DNA from: a virus
Strand: one strand, 5' to 3'
Length of the DNA: 22,035 bases
UHGV virus genome: UHGV-0200595
Shown: piece by piece, positions 1,219 through 6,775 of the stretch
How the letters are laid out: the number at the start of each line of letters is the position of its first letter
How positions within the stretch are numbered: position 1 is the first letter of the stretch
Made by a program: the position numbers and the translations under genes
The notes under the pieces: model-generated
Database searches by the model: none
What the model saw: the letters and a program-made list of their open reading frames with translations, nothing else
What the model was told of the DNA's origin: nothing

Positions 1219-1508
1219 TGGCTGATTTACGAAAAGCATCACGCGGCCTGATGTGTACAGTCAGGATCCCCGGTTACTGCAACCATAATCCCGAAACATC
1301 TGTGCTTGCGCACTACCGGATGGCCGGCACTTGCGGGACCGCAACAAAACCACACGATATGCAGGCGGCGATCGCCTGTTGTGCCTGCCATGACCTGATC
1401 GACGGTCGGGTAAAAACCGATGACTACAGCAAAGAAGAACTTCGCCTGATGCATGCAGAAGGCGTTTTCCGTACGCAAGAAATCTGGAGAGAGAAAGGGC
1501 TGATATGA
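1215..1508 (+). CDS. YbcO/DUF1364-like Cys/His-rich putative nuclease
   Basis: 97 aa with Cys/His clusters (CTVRIPGYCNH...CCACHDLIDGR). The size and position before Q match DLP12 YbcO. ATGA overlaps at both ends. Confidence 0.7.
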   Translation: MMADLRKASRGLMCTVRIPGYCNHNPETSVLAHYRMAGTCGTATKPHDMQAAIACCACHDLIDGRVKTDDYSKEELRLMHAEGVFRTQEIWREKGLI

Positions 1509-2047
1509 TTTACCCAACCAATACAGGAAAACCAGGTGAACACCTTCGCCTTAGCACACTCGAGAGCGTATGGATTCAGGGCAAGTTGCGTATGTGGGGC
1601 CGTTGGTCGTACATCGGCAGCGGTAAACCTGGCAACATGTTTAACCAGTTGCTGACGTCTAAAAAACTGACCAAAACAGCGATAAATGAGGCGCTCCGCA
1701 GAATGAAGCGGGCAGGGCTGGATAAACCGGAACTTGAGGCATTTTTGCGGGATATGATTAACGGTAAACAAAAAAGCTGGCTTGCACACTGTTCGGATGC
1801 GGAGGCGTTAAAAATCGACGGGGTTATCGGTGAAGTCCTGGCGGATCATCCCAGATTGTTCAATATCCTGAGTCAGCGTTATGTGGGGCGGGGGATGAGT
1901 AAGCGCATGATGGCCGAGAGGTTAAATGAAGTACATCCAGAATGGTGCTTTAGCACATGCGAAAAGCGGATCGCTAATTGGTTAGCTGTCGCAGAATATA
2001 TGCTTTATATCCCCATGCATGAATCATTTGCTCAAAAAATGACTTGA
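1505..2047 (+). CDS. Late-gene antitermination protein Q (non-lambda Q family)
   Basis: 180 aa with an LRMWGRW motif reminiscent of Q-family antiterminators. It is the last gene before a promoter plus terminator pair and the lysis and structural genes. Confidence 0.75.
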   Translation: MIYPTNTGKPGEHLRLSTLESVWIQGKLRMWGRWSYIGSGKPGNMFNQLLTSKKLTKTAINEALRRMKRAGLDKPELEAFLRDMINGKQKSWLAHCSDAEALKIDGVIGEVLADHPRLFNILSQRYVGRGMSKRMMAERLNEVHPEWCFSTCEKRIANWLAVAEYMLYIPMHESFAQKMT

Positions 2048-2072
2048 CTTTTTACGCACAAATTGCTCAAAT
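2044..2072 (+). promoter_or_regulatory. Candidate late promoter PR'
   Basis: -35 TTGACT (2044-2049) overlaps the Q stop. A 17-nt spacer precedes an extended -10 TGcTCAAAT (2064-2072). A transcript ending at tR' would be roughly 75 nt, like lambda 6S RNA. Confidence 0.5.
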
Positions 2073-2131
2073 TCTGGTACGCTTCGCATAGCTGTATCGC
2101 GAGGCGAATGACAGACATAAACGCAACACTT

Positions 2132-2157
2132 AACCCGCCATCGTGCGGGTTTTTTGT
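2132..2157 (+). terminator. tR'-like rho-independent terminator, the presumed target of Q antitermination
   Basis: Stem AACCCGC (2132-2138), loop CATCGT, stem GCGGGTT (2145-2151), then TTTTTTG. Confidence 0.85.
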
Positions 2158-2660
2158 GCCCTAAAAGTGAGGGGCAGTACGGTAAACGCGGTGGTGGTTG
2201 TGGATACCGGCTTTTCATCTTGCACTGGTTTAGCGTCAGTCAGTGGCAGTTGCCGAATGAAGCGGATTACCTGAAGCTGCAGGCGCTGTTTGCACAGGTG
2301 GCGGCAGAAAAGCATCTGCGTGATGAACTGGAAAAGCCACACCACCAGCTTGTAACAACATACGGTGAACTGAACCGAAAATATGCAGAGTTACAGGAAG
2401 AGTACAAATCTCTCTGGCGACATTTTTCTGTGTCCGTACTGGTTCCCTACACCGACGCCTGGACGCACAAGCCCGTGCAATTTTATCCCGGCAAACATCC
2501 CTGTGAAAAACCGGCTGACATGCTGAGGCAGATAATTGAAACCAGCAACCGTCCTGGGGATTTGGTCGCGGACTTTTTCATGGGATCGGGTTCTACTGTA
2601 AAAGCTGCGTTATCGTTGGGGCGTCGCGCGGTTGGTGTGGACGGTTTGAACAGACTGTAG
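2154..2660 (+). pseudogene. Remnant of a beta-class N6/N4 DNA methyltransferase: TRD plus AdoMet motif I, with no catalytic (D/N/S)PPY motif
   Basis: Contains HPCEKPADMLRQII...GDLVADFFMGSGSTVKAALSLGRRAVGVD, the HPxxKP and FxGxG region of PF01555-type enzymes. No DPPY-like motif is present anywhere. The annotated start sits inside the tR' T-run. The ORF stops soon after GVD. Confidence 0.7.
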
Positions 2661-2694
2661 GGGAGATTAGTGAAATTGTTGCGGGAGGAAGGAA

Positions 2695-2712
2695 GCCCCG
2701 CTAAACCGGGGC
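2695..2712. terminator. GC hairpin between the convergent methylase relic and hicB
   Basis: GCCCCG-CTAAAC-CGGGGC. There is no clean U-run on either strand; the minus side has TTCCTTCC. Confidence 0.3.
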
Positions 2713-2722
2713 CGTAAAATCA

Positions 2723-3154
2723 TCATTGCTTCAGTTCATGGCGGGCAGCTTCAGCGATGAAGTGACTGCGGTCGCGATAAACGTTGCTGGCCTTTACTGC
2801 ATTATCGATCCGCTTAATCAGCGTATCAGGTAATGAGATGTTTATGCGCTGAGGCTTGCCTTCGAATTCTGACAAATCAACGTCGACCATAACCCAGCTG
2901 TCGAAGTCTTTATATTCTGGATTAACGGAATAAACCAGATAGCCAGCATCCTTGATATCTTCGACAGCAACATCGTTATTCTGAACCAGGTCTTCGACAA
3001 CCATCAGGATAGCTTCTTTCACCATTGGGGCAATCTGGTCCTGAGTATCAGCAGCGGAGAAACATCCGTAATCGTAAGCTGAAAACGCGGGAACGATCAT
3101 ACCGTAGGCGGTCTTTTCATCTTTCGGCGTCTCGACGCCCACTGAGAAGAACAT
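2723..3154 (-). CDS. hicB: HicB-family antitoxin with a C-terminal ribbon-helix-helix DNA-binding domain
   Basis: 143 aa. It has a HicB-like N-terminal fold and a C-terminal RINISLPDTLIKRID...RSHFIAEAARHEL RHH motif. SD GGAGG lies 5 nt upstream. It sits immediately downstream of hicA. Confidence 0.85.
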   Translation of the reverse strand: MFFSVGVETPKDEKTAYGMIVPAFSAYDYGCFSAADTQDQIAPMVKEAILMVVEDLVQNNDVAVEDIKDAGYLVYSVNPEYKDFDSWVMVDVDLSEFEGKPQRINISLPDTLIKRIDNAVKASNVYRDRSHFIAEAARHELKQ

Positions 3155-3178
3155 ATCAACCTCCAGAGAGGGCGGGGA

Positions 3179-3361
3179 TTAGAACCCCGCCAGTTTTTTA
3201 ATGGATTTGACAGTGCCGAGAGGTAAGTCCTTTTTTGGATGCGGAACCGGAAAAGTTTTTCCGGTTATCGGTGACCACCATATCTGGTGGCTTCCTCCGT
3301 TATGCCTTTTGAGTTCACATCCGGCAGCAGTCAATTCCTTTATCAGGTCAGTAGATTTCAT
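3179..3361 (-). CDS. hicA: HicA-family mRNA-interferase toxin
   Basis: 60 aa from the internal ATG (MKSTDLIKELTAAGCELKRHNGGSHQIWW...HPKKDLPLGTVKSIKKLAGF), with the typical HicA length and GSH motif. SD GGAGGA lies 3 nt upstream. The track ORF's 12-aa N-terminal extension is unlikely to be real. Confidence 0.88.
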   Translation of the reverse strand: MKSTDLIKELTAAGCELKRHNGGSHQIWWSPITGKTFPVPHPKKDLPLGTVKSIKKLAGF

Positions 3362-3383
3362 GTTTCCTCCTGGCCTGAAAACT

Positions 3384-3435
3384 ATTATACACACCAATAC
3401 ACACGAAGCAATATTTTGTGTGTATTCGTGTGTAA
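3384..3435 (-). promoter_or_regulatory. hicAB promoter with a four-site palindromic operator
   Basis: On the minus strand, -10 TATAAT (3389-3384) and -35 TTGCTT (3411-3406) are separated by 16 nt. ATACACAC occurs at 3387-3394 and 3397-3404. It is mirrored by GTGTGTAT at 3418-3425 and GTGTGTAA at 3428-3435, symmetric about 3411. Confidence 0.65.
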
Positions 3436-3456
3436 ATTTGATGGGGTGTTATTAAC

Positions 3457-3479
3457 GGGCCGCTGGTGGCCCTTTTTCA
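3457..3479 (+). terminator. Second plus-strand terminator just upstream of the holin gene
   Basis: GGGCC (3457-3461), loop GCTGGT, GGCCC (3468-3472), then TTTTTCATTT. Confidence 0.55.
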
Positions 3480-3496
3480 TTTACAGGAGAAAAAGT

Positions 3497-3889
3497 ATGT
3501 CTGAACCCTTATCCGGTTCCGGCACGGCTGCTGCGCTCGGAGGGGCGACGGTGTTCGGGCTGTTTACCGGAACGGATTTCGGGATTGTGTTTGGCGCATT
3601 TGCCGGGGCGCTGTTTGTGGCCACGATGCCGCAGGCGCTTTCAGCCTGGCGGGTGGCGGCGCATTTTCTGGTGTCGTTCATAGTCGGTGTGCTGGGAGCG
3701 CGTGTGCTGTCAGTCTGGATTGCATCAAAAACAGGTTATGACGGCACATCGGCGGATGCATTGTGCGCGGTGCTGGTATCGGTGGTGTCGGTAAAGGTTC
3801 TGTCGTTCATTCACCAGCAGGATATTACATCACTGGTGTCCGGCCTGTTCTCCCGCCTGCGGGGCGGAGGAGGTGGCAATGGCAGGTAA
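3497..3889 (+). CDS. Holin-like multi-pass membrane protein
   Basis: 130 aa from the ATG at 3497 (SD AGGAG at 3485-3489). It has 3-4 hydrophobic Gly/Ala-rich segments and a charged C-terminus. It is the first gene of the lysis cassette. The track ORF start at 3287 would run through the hicA promoter, so it was rejected. Confidence 0.75.
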   Translation: MSEPLSGSGTAAALGGATVFGLFTGTDFGIVFGAFAGALFVATMPQALSAWRVAAHFLVSFIVGVLGARVLSVWIASKTGYDGTSADALCAVLVSVVSVKVLSFIHQQDITSLVSGLFSRLRGGGGGNGR

Positions 3890-4157
3890 TATTCCAGGAT
3901 TGCTGAATGTGGCGCTATGTACGGTTATCGTGCTGGCGCTTTTTTTTTACCGCAGAAAAGACGCCACGCATAAACCTCTGGTGTCGTGGCTAGCCTGGCT
4001 GCTGATGTTGATATATGCGGTCGCGCCGCTCAGTTTTCTGTGCGGTCGTCCTCTTCCCGGTAACTGGGCGGTGGTGCTGGCTAATCTGTTGTTCTGTGTG
4101 CTGGTGGTATGGGCGCGCGGGAATGTGTCAAAAATCCTTTCATTACTGAGGCACTGA
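3879..4157 (+). CDS. Second holin or antiholin-like protein with three transmembrane segments
   Basis: 92 aa from the ATG at 3879 (GGAGG 5 nt upstream); a GTG at 3873 is an alternative start. It has three clear TM helices and overlaps the end of the previous gene. Confidence 0.7.
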   Translation: MAGNIPGLLNVALCTVIVLALFFYRRKDATHKPLVSWLAWLLMLIYAVAPLSFLCGRPLPGNWAVVLANLLFCVLVVWARGNVSKILSLLRH

Positions 4158-4158
4158 G

Positions 4159-4704
4159 ATGAAATCGAAGGACGTTATTTTTGATGAAATCCTCGGAAAA
4201 GAGGGAGGCTACGTAGACCATCCCGATGACAAGGGCGGCCCGACAAAGTGGGGTATCACTGAAAAAGTGGCTCGGGCACATGGATACCTTGGCGATATGC
4301 ACGATTTAACTCGAGGACAGGCGCTGGAAATTCTCGAGGCTGATTACTGGTACGGACCCCGTTTCGACCAGGTTTCCGCGTTATCCCCCGATATTGCCGC
4401 CGAGCTGTGCGACACGGGTGTGAATATGGGGCCGTCCGTGGCGACGAAGATGCTTCAGCGCTGGCTGAACGTATTCAACCAGGGCGGAAAACTTTACCCG
4501 GATATGGATGCCGATGGGCGTATCGGCCCACGGACTCTTAATGCGTTACGGGTATATCTGCAAAAACGAGGCAAAGACGGTGAACTGGTGTTGCTCACAT
4601 CGCTGAACTGCACGCAGGGAGAGCGCTACCTTGCTCTGGCCGAGAAACGCGAGGCTAATGAGTCCTTTGTATACGGCTGGATGAAGGAGCGCGTCGCACT
4701 ATGA
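4159..4704 (+). CDS. Endolysin: glycoside hydrolase family 108 muramidase with a C-terminal PG-binding-3-type domain
   Basis: N-terminal ILGKEGGYVDHPDDKGGPTKWGIT is the GH108 EGGY catalytic signature. The protein is 181 aa and follows the holins. Confidence 0.9.
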   Translation: MKSKDVIFDEILGKEGGYVDHPDDKGGPTKWGITEKVARAHGYLGDMHDLTRGQALEILEADYWYGPRFDQVSALSPDIAAELCDTGVNMGPSVATKMLQRWLNVFNQGGKLYPDMDADGRIGPRTLNALRVYLQKRGKDGELVLLTSLNCTQGERYLALAEKREANESFVYGWMKERVAL

Positions 4705-4883: not shown

Positions 4884-5139
4884 TCACCCGCGAAGGCAGA
4901 ATATTTTACTGAAAAATGACGTTGGCCAGCGCGTCCGGAAAGCAAAAAATTCTGCGGAGTGCGGTGTTTTTGAATAATAAATGCTGATTTCGATTTTCAC
5001 GATTCAGATATCGATCACTGGTATTACAGCAGCCCTTCAATGAGGGGCTGCGATAATGCCAAAGTTCGCCATCGGCACCCGCCGCGCACCCTGCGCACTG
5101 GTCGATGGTGGACTTTTCAAATTTCAACATCGAGGCTGT

Positions 5140-5931
5140 ATGTGCGAAGAATTAACAATCGTCTATCGCCCGTTAAATGAACTGATACCGTGTGCAAGAA
5201 ATGCCAGAACCCACAGTGATGAGCAGGTGGCGCAATTGGTCGCCAGTATTAAGGAATTTGGCTGGACAAATCCGGTGCTGGTTGATGAAAACGGAGAGAT
5301 TATTGCCGGACATGGTCGTGTCATGGCCGCAGAATCGCTTGGCATGGATATCGTTCCGGTAATTGTCCTTACGAATCTGACAGACGATCAGAAACGGGCG
5401 TATCGTCTGGCAGATAACCGGCTGCCGATGAATGCAGGCTGGGATGTGGAACTGCTGAGGCTGGAAATTGCAGATTTGCTGGATGCTGATTTCGATATTT
5501 CTCTGACAGGGTTTAACCAGGCAGAGATTGACGAACTGCTGACTGAAATTACAACAGACACAGAAAGCGGCGATGAGCCGTACACAGCAAAAATTGATAC
5601 GCCTGTTTATGAGCCGTCAGGAGAAAAGCCTGATATCGGAGAATTGTACGACGACGAGAAGACTCAGGAACTGGCAGAGCGTATCCGCAAAGCCGGGCTT
5701 GACCCAGAGATCGAAAAATTCCTCCTGAGTGCAGCAGAGCGGCACACCATTTTCAATTTCAGCAAAATTGCTGATTACTATGCTCACGCTCCGGCAGAGA
5801 TACAGGCGCTGTTCGAAGAATCCGCACTGGTGATCATTGATTTTCAGCAAGCCATTGAACACGGTTTTGTCCGTATGACTCAGCGCATGGTGGAGATCAT
5901 GCATGGAGATGAGGAGGAGGAATATGCGTGA
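5140..5931 (+). CDS. ParB/Srx-like N-terminal-domain protein with an unassigned C-terminal domain
   Basis: YRPLNELIPCARNARTHSDEQVAQLVASIKEFGWTNPVLVD..IIAGHGRVMAA (GHGR at 5308-5319) and RAYRLADNRL..AGWD..LL match the ParB-like module seen N-terminal to phage DNA methylases. The preferred start is the ATG at 5140 (GAGG upstream); the track start at 5056 is possible. Confidence 0.8.
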   Translation: MCEELTIVYRPLNELIPCARNARTHSDEQVAQLVASIKEFGWTNPVLVDENGEIIAGHGRVMAAESLGMDIVPVIVLTNLTDDQKRAYRLADNRLPMNAGWDVELLRLEIADLLDADFDISLTGFNQAEIDELLTEITTDTESGDEPYTAKIDTPVYEPSGEKPDIGELYDDEKTQELAERIRKAGLDPEIEKFLLSAAERHTIFNFSKIADYYAHAPAEIQALFEESALVIIDFQQAIEHGFVRMTQRMVEIMHGDEEEEYA

Positions 5932-6775
5932 TGATTTTTGCGCATTTATTCTGACCCACGGACGGCCGGATAATGTGCTGACATACCGCACTCTGCGCCG
6001 GGCGGGTTACACCGGAAAAATATATATCGTTGTTGATGACGAGGATAAGACCCGGCAGCAGTATATTCAGGCGTTTGGCGATCAGGTGCTGGTATTTTCT
6101 AAAACGGATATTGCCAGCCGCTTCGATGAAGCAGACAACTTTGGCGACCGTCGCTCAATCTTTTATGCCAGGAATGCCTGTCCGGACCTGGCAAAAAAGG
6201 TTGGGTGTAAATATTACATCCAGCTCGATGACGACTATCACGAGTTCCAGTTTCGGGTGGATCGCAACTATGACCAGGCCTATTTCCCGATAAGGAAACT
6301 GGATGAGATCCTTTCTGAAATGCTGGCGTATTACGAATCAATACCTGCGCTTTCCATCGCTATGGCGCAGGGTGGTGATTTTCTTGGTGACAATGGCGGC
6401 CACGCCGCATGGGTGAAACGGAAGGCGATGAACAGTTTTATCTGTTCCGTTGAGCGACCGTTTTCATTCGTGGGGCGCATTAACGAGGACGTGAACACAT
6501 ACACGAACCTCGGACGGTGCGGCGAACTGTTTATGACAGTGGGGGCTGTGCAGTTGGGCCAGAAGCAGACGCAGAAAAACAGCGGCGGCATGACTGAACT
6601 GTATCTGGATTCTGGTACCTACGTTAAAAGTTTTTACTCCGTCATGTATGCGCCGTCGTGCGTGAAAATCGCACTGATGGGCGCCAGCCATAAACGCATT
6701 CACCATCAGGTCACCTGGAACAACGCTGCAGTAAAAATCCTTCACGAAAAATATAGGAAGAAGACACCCTGCTAA
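5924..6775 (+). CDS. GT-A fold (GT2-like) glycosyltransferase-like protein
   Basis: N-terminal beta-strand and loop FILTHGRPD, DxD-type motif QLDDDY (6227-6235), and an ED motif GRINEDVN (6485-6490) about 85 aa later, as in GT2 enzymes. The start ATG at 5924 follows GGAGGAGG and overlaps the ParB-like stop by 8 nt. An ATG at 5903 is an alternative start. Confidence 0.6.
   Translation: MRDDFCAFILTHGRPDNVLTYRTLRRAGYTGKIYIVVDDEDKTRQQYIQAFGDQVLVFSKTDIASRFDEADNFGDRRSIFYARNACPDLAKKVGCKYYIQLDDDYHEFQFRVDRNYDQAYFPIRKLDEILSEMLAYYESIPALSIAMAQGGDFLGDNGGHAAWVKRKAMNSFICSVERPFSFVGRINEDVNTYTNLGRCGELFMTVGAVQLGQKQTQKNSGGMTELYLDSGTYVKSFYSVMYAPSCVKIALMGASHKRIHHQVTWNNAAVKILHEKYRKKTPC

What the first reader, a model, noticed from the sequence alone, without database searches (positions are those of the whole stretch)
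2723..3361. hicAB toxin-antitoxin pair lying antisense inside the Q-dependent late transcript
A complete hicA-hicB operon sits between tR' and the holin gene on the opposite strand. Once Q antiterminates at tR', late transcription must run head-on through hicAB and its promoter. Antitoxins are typically labile. Convergent late transcription, or the antisense RNA it makes, could therefore shut off HicB resupply and release the HicA RNase only when the late operon fires. That would make the pair a built-in late-phase switch for host or competitor mRNA shut-off or abortive infection, rather than a passive addiction module. This is an inference from geometry only.
Basis: inference. Interest (0 to 1): 0.5.

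Follow-up and report, generated by a model that had tools for sequence, protein, structure and literature searches.

The report
Antisense hicAB toxin-antitoxin cassette before phage lysis genes
A complete, self-regulated hicA-hicB toxin-antitoxin cassette really does sit backwards between the phage's late-gene activator Q and its lysis genes, and this backwards placement recurs in many phages. It is a known kind of prophage passenger gene, and nothing here shows that it acts as a late-phase switch.

Summary
hicA (3361-3179) and hicB (3154-2723) are intact. The catalytic His is kept, HicB has an RHH DNA-binding tail, and both genes are under purifying selection (dN/dS 0.03-0.17). They have their own promoter, which overlaps a 20-nt inverted-repeat operator.

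The pair lies antisense between a Q-like gene with its promoter/terminator module (2044-2151) and a terminator-guarded holin-endolysin cassette (3457-4704). It is a compact mobile cassette of about 740 bp. In all 16 phage-context loci among its 18 closest relatives it is antisense to the late genes, next to at least 3 Q families and at least 5 holin families. In 83 loci of the wider family, 41 are antisense to both flanks and about 12 are co-directional.

The same cassette type is also carried on about 60-kb E. coli plasmids. One phage lineage carries an intact copy in sense orientation.

So the geometry is real and non-random. Release of HicA by late transcription remains pure inference. The likeliest reading is an autonomous moron that is expressed in the lysogen, insulated from the lysis genes, and probably damped during lytic growth. 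It is a new member of a known kind, of modest interest.

The parts
1505..2047 (+). Q-like late-gene antiterminator (DUF1133 type)
   Evidence: Pfam DUF1133 8.4e-102 and Phage_antitermQ 5e-08. PHROG 753 'anti-termination protein Q-like' 2.7e-75. It lies after the DUF1367 and YbcO genes, as in the E. coli O84:H7 prophage L020.
2044..2073 (+). Candidate late promoter pR' (TTGACT, 17-18 nt spacer, TCAAAT/CAAATT), overlapping the Q stop codon
   Evidence: Read from the sequence. The leader that follows is conserved downstream of DUF1133 genes in L020 and L017. It was not called by the consensus scan, so it is inferred.
2132..2157 (+). Intrinsic terminator, candidate tR'
   Evidence: 7-bp stem followed by TTTTTTG. 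Fold -15.2 kcal/mol, z -3.0. Conserved in E. coli prophage L020, with changes in the loop only.
2154..2660 (+). Truncated N6/N4 DNA methylase remnant
   Evidence: Matches only Pfam profile positions 121-210 of 221. Full-length homologues of about 350 aa occupy the same place in L006, L007, L009 and phiP27.
2694..2713 (-). Hairpin 3' of hicB; marks the downstream end of the cassette (weak terminator or mRNA-end stabiliser)
   Evidence: Fold -14.7 kcal/mol, z -0.9, no T-run. The plasmid copy has a canonical terminator at this position. Similarity among loci ends just beyond it.
2723..3154 (-). hicB antitoxin (partial RNase-H-fold N-domain plus C-terminal RHH DNA-binding domain)
   Evidence: dN/dS 0.02-0.16 against relatives.
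3171..3191 (-). Conserved GC hairpin spanning the hicA stop codon and the hicA-hicB spacer. Read on the + strand it looks like a terminator (hairpin followed by AGTTTTTT).
   Evidence: It is retained in the plasmid-borne copy, so it belongs to the cassette and is not a phage-specific insulator.
3179..3361 (-). hicA toxin (RNase, catalytic His25)
   Evidence: dN/dS about 0.03-0.17 against relatives.
3366..3411 (-). hicAB expression signals: SD AGGAGG 3371-3366, -10 TATAAT 3389-3384, -35 TTGCTT 3411-3406 (16-nt spacer)
   Evidence: Read from the sequence. TATAAT, TTG and AGGAGG are conserved in nearly all copies, including the plasmid copy.
3388..3434 (.). Inverted-repeat operator (20-nt arms, 7 nt apart). 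It overlaps the -10 and spacer, flanks the -35, and marks the upstream end of the cassette. It is the presumed HicB (RHH) binding site.
   Evidence: the repeat finder I1, 90% complementary. Conserved across loci, and similarity between loci begins at the outer arm.
3457..3480 (+). Intrinsic terminator directly upstream of the holin ribosome-binding site; belongs to the holin module
   Evidence: Conserved in phiP27 (which has no hicAB) and in L008, where a G-T wobble is valid only on the + strand.
3497..4704 (+). Lysis cassette: holin (Phage_holin_8) 3497-3889, holin (Phage_holin_3_7) 3873-4157, GH108 endolysin 4159-4704
   Evidence: 82-87% DNA identity to the holin modules of phiP27 and of several hundred E. 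coli prophages.

Best explanation
This is an autonomous, self-repressed type II hicAB toxin-antitoxin cassette: a classical hicAB operon whose HicB antitoxin has an RHH DNA-binding domain. It is carried as a moron in the Q-to-lysis gap of a lambdoid phage.

Shown:
- Both genes are intact and under purifying selection.
- The cassette has its own promoter, embedded in an inverted-repeat operator.
- It is a discrete unit of about 740 bp, found in many different phage backbones and on plasmids.
- In phages it is overwhelmingly placed antisense to the surrounding operon.

Inferred:
- In the lysogen, host RNA polymerase transcribes hicAB from its own promoter, and HicB (or the HicA-HicB complex) represses it at the operator.
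- The module serves the lysogen as an addiction element and/or an abortive-infection defence.
- The backwards orientation, together with the + strand terminators at 2132, 3171 and 3457, keeps the constitutive hicAB promoter from driving the holin and endolysin genes.
- The same orientation keeps the strong late promoter from over-expressing the toxin-first operon.
- After induction, Q-modified polymerase must read through all three terminators and cross hicAB head-on. This probably lowers hicAB transcription in the last part of the cycle as a by-product. There is no demonstrated consequence for HicA activity.
For: - Domain and active-site identity.
- Purifying selection.
- Conserved -10, TTG, SD and operator, with sequence similarity between loci starting at the outer operator arm and ending after the 3' hairpin.
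- Presence/absence polymorphism. The same holin module with its terminator occurs without hicAB in phiP27 (which has stx2e there) and in several hundred E. coli prophages.
- The same cassette sits between a different Q and a different holin in E. coli E7-1N7.
- All 16 phage-context loci among the 18 close relatives are antisense, with at least 3 Q families and at least 5 holin families.
- Wider family: 41 loci antisense on both flanks versus about 12 sense. By crude context classes, 19 are fully antisense and 1 is fully sense (two-sided binomial 4e-05 if the classes were independent).
- Plasmid copies in 286 E. coli genomes keep the promoter and intercistronic hairpin.
- Literature: HicB represses hicAB at palindromic operators and is degraded by Lon in E. 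coli K-12 (PMC10865869). hicAB has been noted in late operons of Mannheimia prophages (PMC4553209). Antisense genes embedded in phage operons couple expression to the life cycle in S. aureus phages (PMC11087260).
Against: - No expression, toxicity or binding data exist for this cassette.
- A prophage HicAB in P. putida was a functional TA but contributed neither to prophage stability nor to defence against the phages tested (PMC12894663). The presumed benefit to the lysogen is therefore not established for any prophage hicAB.
- PADLOC has no model that matches either protein.
- The orientation bias could partly reflect common descent. Recombination within the shared cassette swaps flanks but preserves orientation, so the context classes are not independent events.
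- The insulation argument is weakened by one lineage that tolerates an intact sense copy upstream of its lysis genes.
Confidence: 0.55

Rival explanations
1. Q-dependent late transcription, by polymerase collision and/or antisense pairing with hicAB mRNA, stops HicB resupply. Labile HicB decays and HicA RNase is freed only in the late phase. HicA then acts as an adaptive switch for host or competitor mRNA shut-off, or for abortive infection.
For: - The geometry is confirmed: late transcripts must cross hicAB.
- The orientation is non-random across phages.
- HicB is a Lon substrate in E. coli K-12 (PMC10865869).
- TA systems can be activated by loss of transcription: the type III systems ToxIN and AvcID (PMC10853763, PMC9934689).
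- Prophage TAs can modulate production of their own phage: PfiT/PfiA (PMC7264888).
Against: - There is no direct evidence.
- Activation by transcription shut-off takes time and is outrun by fast lysis (PMC9934689).
- HicA would also cleave the phage's own late mRNAs.
- Antisense copies also sit in nin-region, tail and baseplate operons, and the cassette is common on plasmids. The Q/tR' setting is therefore not special.
- An intact sense-oriented copy exists.
Confidence: 0.1
2. Autoimmunity avoidance. The antisense placement is selected so that lytic-cycle transcription silences the whole module, toxin included. A defence or addiction system that is useful in the lysogen then does not interfere with the phage's own lytic growth. 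This follows the logic of a noncontiguous operon or excludon.
For: - There is a precedent for life-cycle switching by antisense genes embedded in phage operons (Tha/Ith in S. aureus phage 80alpha, PMC11087260).
- The antisense bias holds across many operon positions, not only the Q-lysis gap.
Against: - Silencing transcription of a type II TA removes the antitoxin supply as well. It is not an obvious way to make the module safe.
- No anti-phage activity is known for this hicAB type (PMC11594946, PMC12894663).
Confidence: 0.15
3. No adaptive meaning. hicAB is a selfish addiction cassette. It entered the lambdoid gene pool once or a few times in this orientation and spread by homologous recombination between collinear mosaic phages, which preserves orientation automatically.
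For: - The cassette is itself a stretch of shared homology between otherwise different phages.
- Close relatives are on plasmids.
- Decayed copies exist: L017/L018 have HicA H25Q, an operator deletion and a truncated hicB.
- The P. putida prophage HicAB2 had no measurable role (PMC12894663).
Against: - Antisense placement is seen at at least five unrelated kinds of position: the Q-holin gap, the lysis-terminase gap, baseplate genes, minor-tail genes and NinB-NinG. It is seen in hosts with GC from 35 to 57%. These placements need separate insertion events.
- Purifying selection is strong in most copies.
Confidence: 0.15
4. Counter-defence. The phage carries HicB mainly as an antitoxin decoy, to neutralise a host-encoded HicA that would otherwise abort infection.
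For: Acquisition of antitoxins by phages is described as a common counter-measure to TA defences (PMC11594946).
Against: - The toxin gene is intact, keeps its catalytic His and is under purifying selection.
- The antisense orientation would lower, not raise, HicB supply during lytic growth.
Confidence: 0.04

Closest known systems
Classical hicAB type II toxin-antitoxin operons with RHH-type HicB (Gerdes 2024 classes 3/4; B. pseudomallei HicAB 6g26, Y. pestis HicA3B3 4p78)
   Same: - Toxin-first gene order with a 24-nt spacer.
- HicA domain with the catalytic His.
- HicB with an N-terminal HicA-binding domain and a C-terminal RHH.
- A palindromic operator over the promoter (PMC10865869).
   Different: - Sequence identity to the solved proteins is low (E 1e-09 to 1e-12).
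- This subfamily has a conserved GC hairpin across the hicA stop codon.
- It is found mainly in enterobacterial prophages and on about 60-kb E. coli plasmids.
Phage morons in the Q-to-lysis gap of lambdoid phages (stx2e in phiP27, LT-IIb in SerU phage), and antisense morons such as lambda bor (bor from general knowledge)
   Same: - The same insertion site upstream of a homologous holin module.
- Own promoter and 3' hairpin.
- Presence/absence polymorphism among related phages.
- In L004, hicAB sits beside pertussis-like and LT-IIB-like toxin genes in the same gap.
   Different: - stx and LT genes are co-oriented with the late operon and are boosted by Q.
- hicAB is oppositely oriented, so Q-dependent transcription cannot express it.
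Noncontiguous operons / excludons: an antisense gene with its own promoter inside an operon (Tha/Ith in S. aureus phage 80alpha, PMC11087260)
   Same: An independently promoted unit embedded antisense in a long phage transcript whose activity changes between lysogeny and lysis.
   Different: - In 80alpha the reciprocal regulation was demonstrated, and it involves the lysogeny (cI) operon and an inhibitor protein.
- Here nothing has been measured, the crossing transcript is the Q-dependent late one, and the embedded unit is a TA pair.
TA activation by loss of transcription (post-segregational killing; type III ToxIN and AvcID during phage-induced host shut-off, PMC10853763, PMC9934689)
   Different: - Those cases involve gene loss or global host shut-off and RNA antitoxins.
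- Here the proposed trigger is local head-on transcription, the antitoxin is a protein, and activation is hypothetical.
hicAB in other prophages (Mannheimia lambda-like phages PMC4553209; P. putida P1 HicAB2 PMC12894663; mycobacteriophage Adephagia PMC11373665)
   Same: hicAB carried as accessory genes inside phage genomes, sometimes within late operons.
   Different: - None of these reports addresses orientation relative to late transcription.
- The functions tested so far (stability, defence) were negative or unresolved.

Membership tests
HicAB type II toxin-antitoxin (classical, RHH-type HicB) | HicA toxin domain (PF07927) | tested here: met
   E 2.6e-17, 63 bits against a cut-off of 27, covering residues 5-59. 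PHROG 353.
HicAB type II toxin-antitoxin (classical, RHH-type HicB) | Catalytic histidine of HicA | tested here: met
   His25 in 'GGSHQ' aligns with position 24 of B. pseudomallei HicA, which is Ala in the deposited 4c26/6g26 chains. That this position is the catalytic His24, mutated to Ala in those entries, is from general knowledge. The degenerate copies L017/L018 have Gln here.
HicAB type II toxin-antitoxin (classical, RHH-type HicB) | HicB antitoxin N-terminal domain plus C-terminal DNA-binding domain | tested here: met
   PF15919 2.4e-28 and RHH_1 2.1e-4 at residues 103-143. Aligned to 6g1n and 4p78.
HicAB type II toxin-antitoxin (classical, RHH-type HicB) | Bicistronic operon, toxin first, closely linked genes | tested here: met
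   hicA stop codon at 3179-3181 and hicB start at 3154 (about 24 nt between them), on the same strand.
HicAB type II toxin-antitoxin (classical, RHH-type HicB) | Palindromic operator in the promoter, bound by HicB | tested here: inconclusive
   A 20-nt inverted repeat overlaps the -10 and spacer and is conserved across loci. Binding itself is not testable here.
HicAB type II toxin-antitoxin (classical, RHH-type HicB) | HicA toxicity, neutralisation by HicB, and proteolytic lability of HicB | not testable with these tools
   Requires expression and stability assays. Purifying selection on both genes is the only indirect support.
Lambdoid Q-dependent late operon | Q antiterminator gene followed at once by a promoter, a short leader and an intrinsic terminator | tested here: inconclusive
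   The Q assignment rests on weak Pfam homology (5e-08), PHROG 753 and gene position. The terminator is clear and is conserved with the leader in E. coli prophage L020. The promoter is only a candidate, and antitermination activity is untested.
Lambdoid Q-dependent late operon | Co-oriented lysis and morphogenesis genes downstream with no intervening promoter | tested here: met
   Holins, endolysin, terminase and structural ORFs are all on the + strand. No + strand promoter-like site was found in 1900-4300. A terminator precedes the holin.
Phage moron | Self-contained unit with its own promoter and 3' hairpin, present or absent between otherwise related phages | tested here: met
   Cassette boundaries are shown. 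Homologous holin modules lack hicAB in phiP27 and E. coli prophages. GC is 47% against 50% for the whole window and 57% for the holins.
Noncontiguous operon / excludon | Antisense unit inside an operon with reciprocal transcriptional regulation | tested here: inconclusive
   The geometry is met. Reciprocal regulation is not testable without RNA data.
Known anti-phage defence systems (PADLOC) | Match to a curated defence-system model | tested here: not met
   No PADLOC model matched HicA or HicB at E <= 0.01.

The most novel reading that the evidence does not exclude
Antisense embedding of hicAB in phage operons is a selected architecture that ties the module to the phage life cycle. Lytic, Q-dependent transcription collides with and pairs against hicAB transcription and cuts off HicB. 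The freed HicA RNase then acts in the last minutes before lysis, for example to shut down host or co-infecting-phage mRNAs, or to abort a failing induction. This would be a cis-wired, transcription-geometry trigger for a type II toxin-antitoxin system.
Probability: 0.1. Interest if true: 0.65.

Novelty: new member of a known kind. Interest (0 to 1): 0.33.

Why it matters
How type II toxin-antitoxin systems are triggered, and what prophage-borne ones are for, is still unsettled. This cassette gives a clean, testable case. It is compact, its promoter and operator are defined, and it sits in a defined head-on collision with a switchable, very strong transcript. Natural 'controls' exist: the same cassette on plasmids, an intact sense-oriented copy in one phage lineage, and decayed copies in others.

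The marked excess of antisense placements across many phage operons is the one result here that goes beyond routine annotation. It suggests that orientation is under selection, whether for insulation, silencing or triggering. If it is only insulation, the finding is an ordinary moron.

Tried and rejected
- **Rfam scan:** the whole window gave no hit at gathering thresholds, so no known RNA element explains the hairpins.
- **PADLOC and NCBIfam:** neither had a model for these proteins.
- **The + strand terminator-like hairpin at 3171-3191 as a phage-specific insulator against read-in late transcription:** rejected as the primary reading, for three reasons.
  - The hairpin is kept in the plasmid copy.
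  - Its T-run is simply the reverse complement of the Lys-Lys codons at the end of hicA.
  - One variant (L008) keeps pairing only through a G-U wobble on the hicAB strand.
- **Antisense + strand ORFs over hicA (3201-3455 and 3025-3201):** these reappear in other loci, but only as shadows of the conserved hicA frame. I treated them as spurious.
- **phiP27 L27, a small minus-strand ORF at the equivalent site:** its translation does not resemble the HicA sequence.
- **Origin of the window:** I looked for it in E. coli. No genome covers more than 33% of the region. The exact HicB occurs only on three ENA metagenome contigs, one of them a 24-kb scaffold that matches the window.
- **Literature:** searches of the held library found no paper that describes hicAB between Q and the holin, or its triggering by late transcription.
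- **Structure prediction and the large protein-database searches:** not used. Domain and PDB sequence matches already settled identity.

Full report
**1. What is there**

On the minus strand, hicA (3361-3179, 60 aa) is followed after about 24 nt by hicB (3154-2723, 143 aa).
- Pfam gives HicA_toxin (2.6e-17) for the first. It gives HicB_lk_antitox (2.4e-28) plus a C-terminal ribbon-helix-helix domain for the second.
- PHROGs files both under 'moron' families.
- Against solved structures, HicA aligns end to end with B. pseudomallei HicA (4c26/6g26) and Y. pestis HicA3. His25 sits at the catalytic position.
- HicB aligns with B. pseudomallei HicB (6g1n) and Y. pestis HicB3.
- In Gerdes' scheme this is a classical hicAB operon with an RHH-type HicB (PMC10865869).
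- Both genes are under purifying selection relative to 15 relatives (dN/dS 0.03-0.17).

**2. Anatomy of the cassette**

I aligned the window with 18 closely related copies (76-97% HicB identity). Similarity begins at the outer arm of a 20-nt inverted repeat (arms 3388-3407 and 3415-3434, 90% complementary). It ends just beyond a hairpin 3' of hicB (2694-2713).

Read on the hicAB strand, the order of elements is:
- the outer repeat arm;
- a TTGCTT -35 (3411-3406);
- the inner repeat arm, which fills the 16-nt spacer;
- a perfect TATAAT -10 (3389-3384);
- AGGAGG (3371-3366);
- the hicA start codon.

TATAAT, TTG and the Shine-Dalgarno sequence are kept in almost every copy. This is the layout expected for HicB autorepression at a palindromic operator (PMC10865869). 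Binding itself is inferred.

A GC hairpin (3171-3191) spans the hicA stop codon and the intergenic spacer and is conserved in nearly all copies.

**3. The setting**

Upstream on the + strand are DUF1367, YbcO and a Q-like gene (1505-2047; DUF1133, weak Phage_antitermQ, PHROG 'anti-termination protein Q-like').
- A TTGACT-containing candidate promoter overlaps the Q stop codon.
- About 85 nt further on there is a clean intrinsic terminator (2132-2151).
- This leader-terminator module is conserved directly after a DUF1133 gene in an E. coli O84:H7 prophage, where tRNAs and lysis genes follow it. I accept it as pR'/tR' by position and conservation. Antitermination is not demonstrated for this Q type.
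- A truncated methylase (2154-2660) follows, and then the antisense hicAB.

Downstream there is a second + strand terminator (3457-3472), then the holin ribosome-binding site, two holins, a GH108 endolysin, and later the terminase and structural genes.
- The pre-holin terminator belongs to the holin module. It is present in phiP27, which carries stx2e instead of hicAB at this site.
- It is also present in L008, where a G-T wobble keeps the stem only on the + strand.
- No + strand promoter-like site lies between hicA and the holin.

Lysis-gene expression should therefore depend on antiterminated transcripts that cross hicAB head-on.

**4. The cassette is mobile and its orientation is not random**

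Among the close relatives, E. coli E7-1N7 carries the cassette (90.6% DNA identity) between a different Q (273 aa) and a class II holin, again antisense.

Two of the 18 close loci are chromosomal or unclear. In all 16 phage-context loci the cassette is antisense to the flanking late genes.
- Q families seen: DUF1133, PF06323 and the E7 type.
- Holin families seen: Phage_holin_8/3_7, class II, lambda-S-like, HP1-like and a 92-aa type.
- Other neighbours seen: a full methylase, a glycosyltransferase, or a pertussis-like/LT-IIB toxin pair.

A profile scan of IMG/VR found 517 relatives. I examined the best 80 loci (44-97% identity, host GC 35-57%), together with the window, E7-1N7 and L004, 83 loci in all.
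- 41 are flanked on both sides by opposite-strand genes.
- About 12 are co-directional.
- By a crude clustering of flanking gene families, 19 context classes are fully antisense and 1 is fully sense. The nominal two-sided binomial is 4e-05.

The antisense copies sit in five kinds of place:
- the Q-holin gap;
- between the lysis genes and the terminase;
- among baseplate genes;
- among minor tail genes;
- between NinB and NinG.

Annotated phage records agree. Pasteurella Pmp4 and Moraxella Mcat18 are antisense, and Acinetobacter vB_AbaS_Gln is sense.

Caveats:
- My gene calls are longest-ORF calls.
- The context classes are not independent events.
- Recombination inside the shared cassette would swap flanks while preserving orientation.

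**5. Facts that limit the 'late-phase switch' reading**

- The nearest E. coli relatives other than E7-1N7 (about 74% DNA identity) are on about 60-kb plasmids in 286 genomes. They keep the promoter, the intercistronic hairpin and a canonical terminator. The module is therefore generic and not adapted to Q or tR'.
- Antisense copies occur in operons that are not Q-dependent late transcripts, such as the nin region.
- One Pasteurellaceae-like phage lineage carries an intact copy (catalytic His present, own promoter) in sense orientation between NinG and the lysis genes.
- The literature held here notes the argument that antitoxin-bound toxins are unlikely to be liberated by preferential antitoxin degradation (PMC11594946).
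- TA activation by transcription shut-off takes time and can be outrun by fast lysis (PMC9934689).
- A functional prophage HicAB in P. putida affected neither prophage stability nor defence (PMC12894663).
- A freed HicA would also cleave the phage's own late mRNAs (inference).

**6. Points in favour of the switch idea**

- HicB is a Lon substrate in E. coli K-12 (PMC10865869).
- Loss of transcription does activate some TA systems (PMC10853763, PMC9934689).
- Prophage TAs can tune production of their own phage (PMC7264888).
- Antisense genes inside phage operons are used to switch expression between lysogeny and lysis (PMC11087260).

Some damping of hicAB transcription by the late transcript is physically likely. 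I put this at roughly two chances in three. Whether it matters is open.

**7. Most likely mechanism**

The cassette is an autonomous, autorepressed TA moron. It is expressed in the lysogen, where its role would be addiction and/or defence; this role is unproven.

The backwards orientation, together with the flanking + strand terminators, has two effects. It keeps the cassette's constitutive promoter from leaking into the holin and endolysin genes. It also prevents the late promoter from over-expressing a toxin-first operon. Silencing during lytic growth would then be a by-product, or possibly a benefit.

Confidence is about 0.55. Silencing to avoid self-interference is about 0.15. Neutral descent is about 0.15.

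**8. Novelty and score**

hicAB in prophages, including in late operons, is already described (PMC4553209, PMC11594946). Morons in the Q-lysis gap are classical. This is a new member of a known kind.

The family-wide antisense bias is a modest new observation that makes the orientation question testable. Interest is 0.33.

Noticed in passing
window 3388-3434; L006-L015 and L019 promoter regions: The two operator arms co-vary at their central base. The pairs are G/C in L008 and L010-L012, T/A in L006, L007 and L009, and C/G in L013-L015 and L019. The repeat therefore stays a perfect palindrome in 11 loci with three different bases. L009 differs from its close relatives L011 and L012 by a double change. 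The HicB RHH strand (PQRINISLP) is identical in all of them. This could reflect arm-to-arm gene conversion, a symmetric but base-tolerant protein contact, or a hairpin or cruciform. On the late (+) transcript the repeat folds at -37.9 kcal/mol (z -4.8).
   Followed up: partly
L017 and L018 (IMG/VR contigs), hicAB region around 5770-6430: A decaying copy of the cassette sits in phages with a homologous Q and holin. The HicA catalytic His is replaced by Gln, 12 bp of the inner operator arm are deleted, hicB is interrupted after 35 codons, and dN/dS for hicA is about 0.6. This looks like loss of the toxin followed by loss of the antitoxin.
   Followed up: partly
L004 6607-8289 (Citrobacter meridianamericanus prophage): Directly next to hicAB in the Q-to-holin gap lies an AB5-type toxin pair. 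The A subunit is a 300-aa pertussis-S1/Scabin/LT-A-like protein and the B subunit is a 126-aa LT-IIB-like protein. Both are co-oriented with the late genes.
   Followed up: partly
window 5056-6775: Between the lysis cassette and the terminase lie a ParB_N-domain gene (5056-5931) and a gene whose product hits PF20691 'TAGT' (5903-6775 in my ORF list; a 283-aa gene call on the metagenome scaffold). This may be a DNA-modification pair. Related phages (L009-L012) carry a 499-aa family-2 glycosyltransferase next to hicAB instead.
   Followed up: no
window 2154-2660: The DNA methylase downstream of tR' is only a C-terminal remnant (Pfam profile positions 121-210 of 221). Full-length copies of about 350 aa occupy this place in L006, L007, L009 and phiP27. 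On another metagenome contig (L023) the remnant is shorter still (146 aa).
   Followed up: partly
L021 (E. coli plasmid pQ503) 2893-4650, and 286 E. coli genomes: A hicAB about 74% identical in DNA is common on about 60-kb conjugative-type E. coli plasmids. There too it is antisense to its neighbours (TraL and others), and a second, partial HicB pseudogene lies about 1 kb away.
   Followed up: partly
L022 8183-8335 (just outside the window start) and L001 2678-2830: A Hok/Gef-family type I toxin gene lies in the early-right (nin) region of the same phage scaffold and of the E. coli E7-1N7 prophage. These phages therefore carry two unrelated toxin modules.
   Followed up: no
window 3245-3266: A perfect 10+10 palindrome (AACCGGAAAA/TTTTCCGGTT) lies inside hicA, in the codons for TGKTFPV. 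The scan scored it as terminator-like on the + strand. It is probably a coding coincidence, but it is conserved with the protein motif.
   Followed up: no
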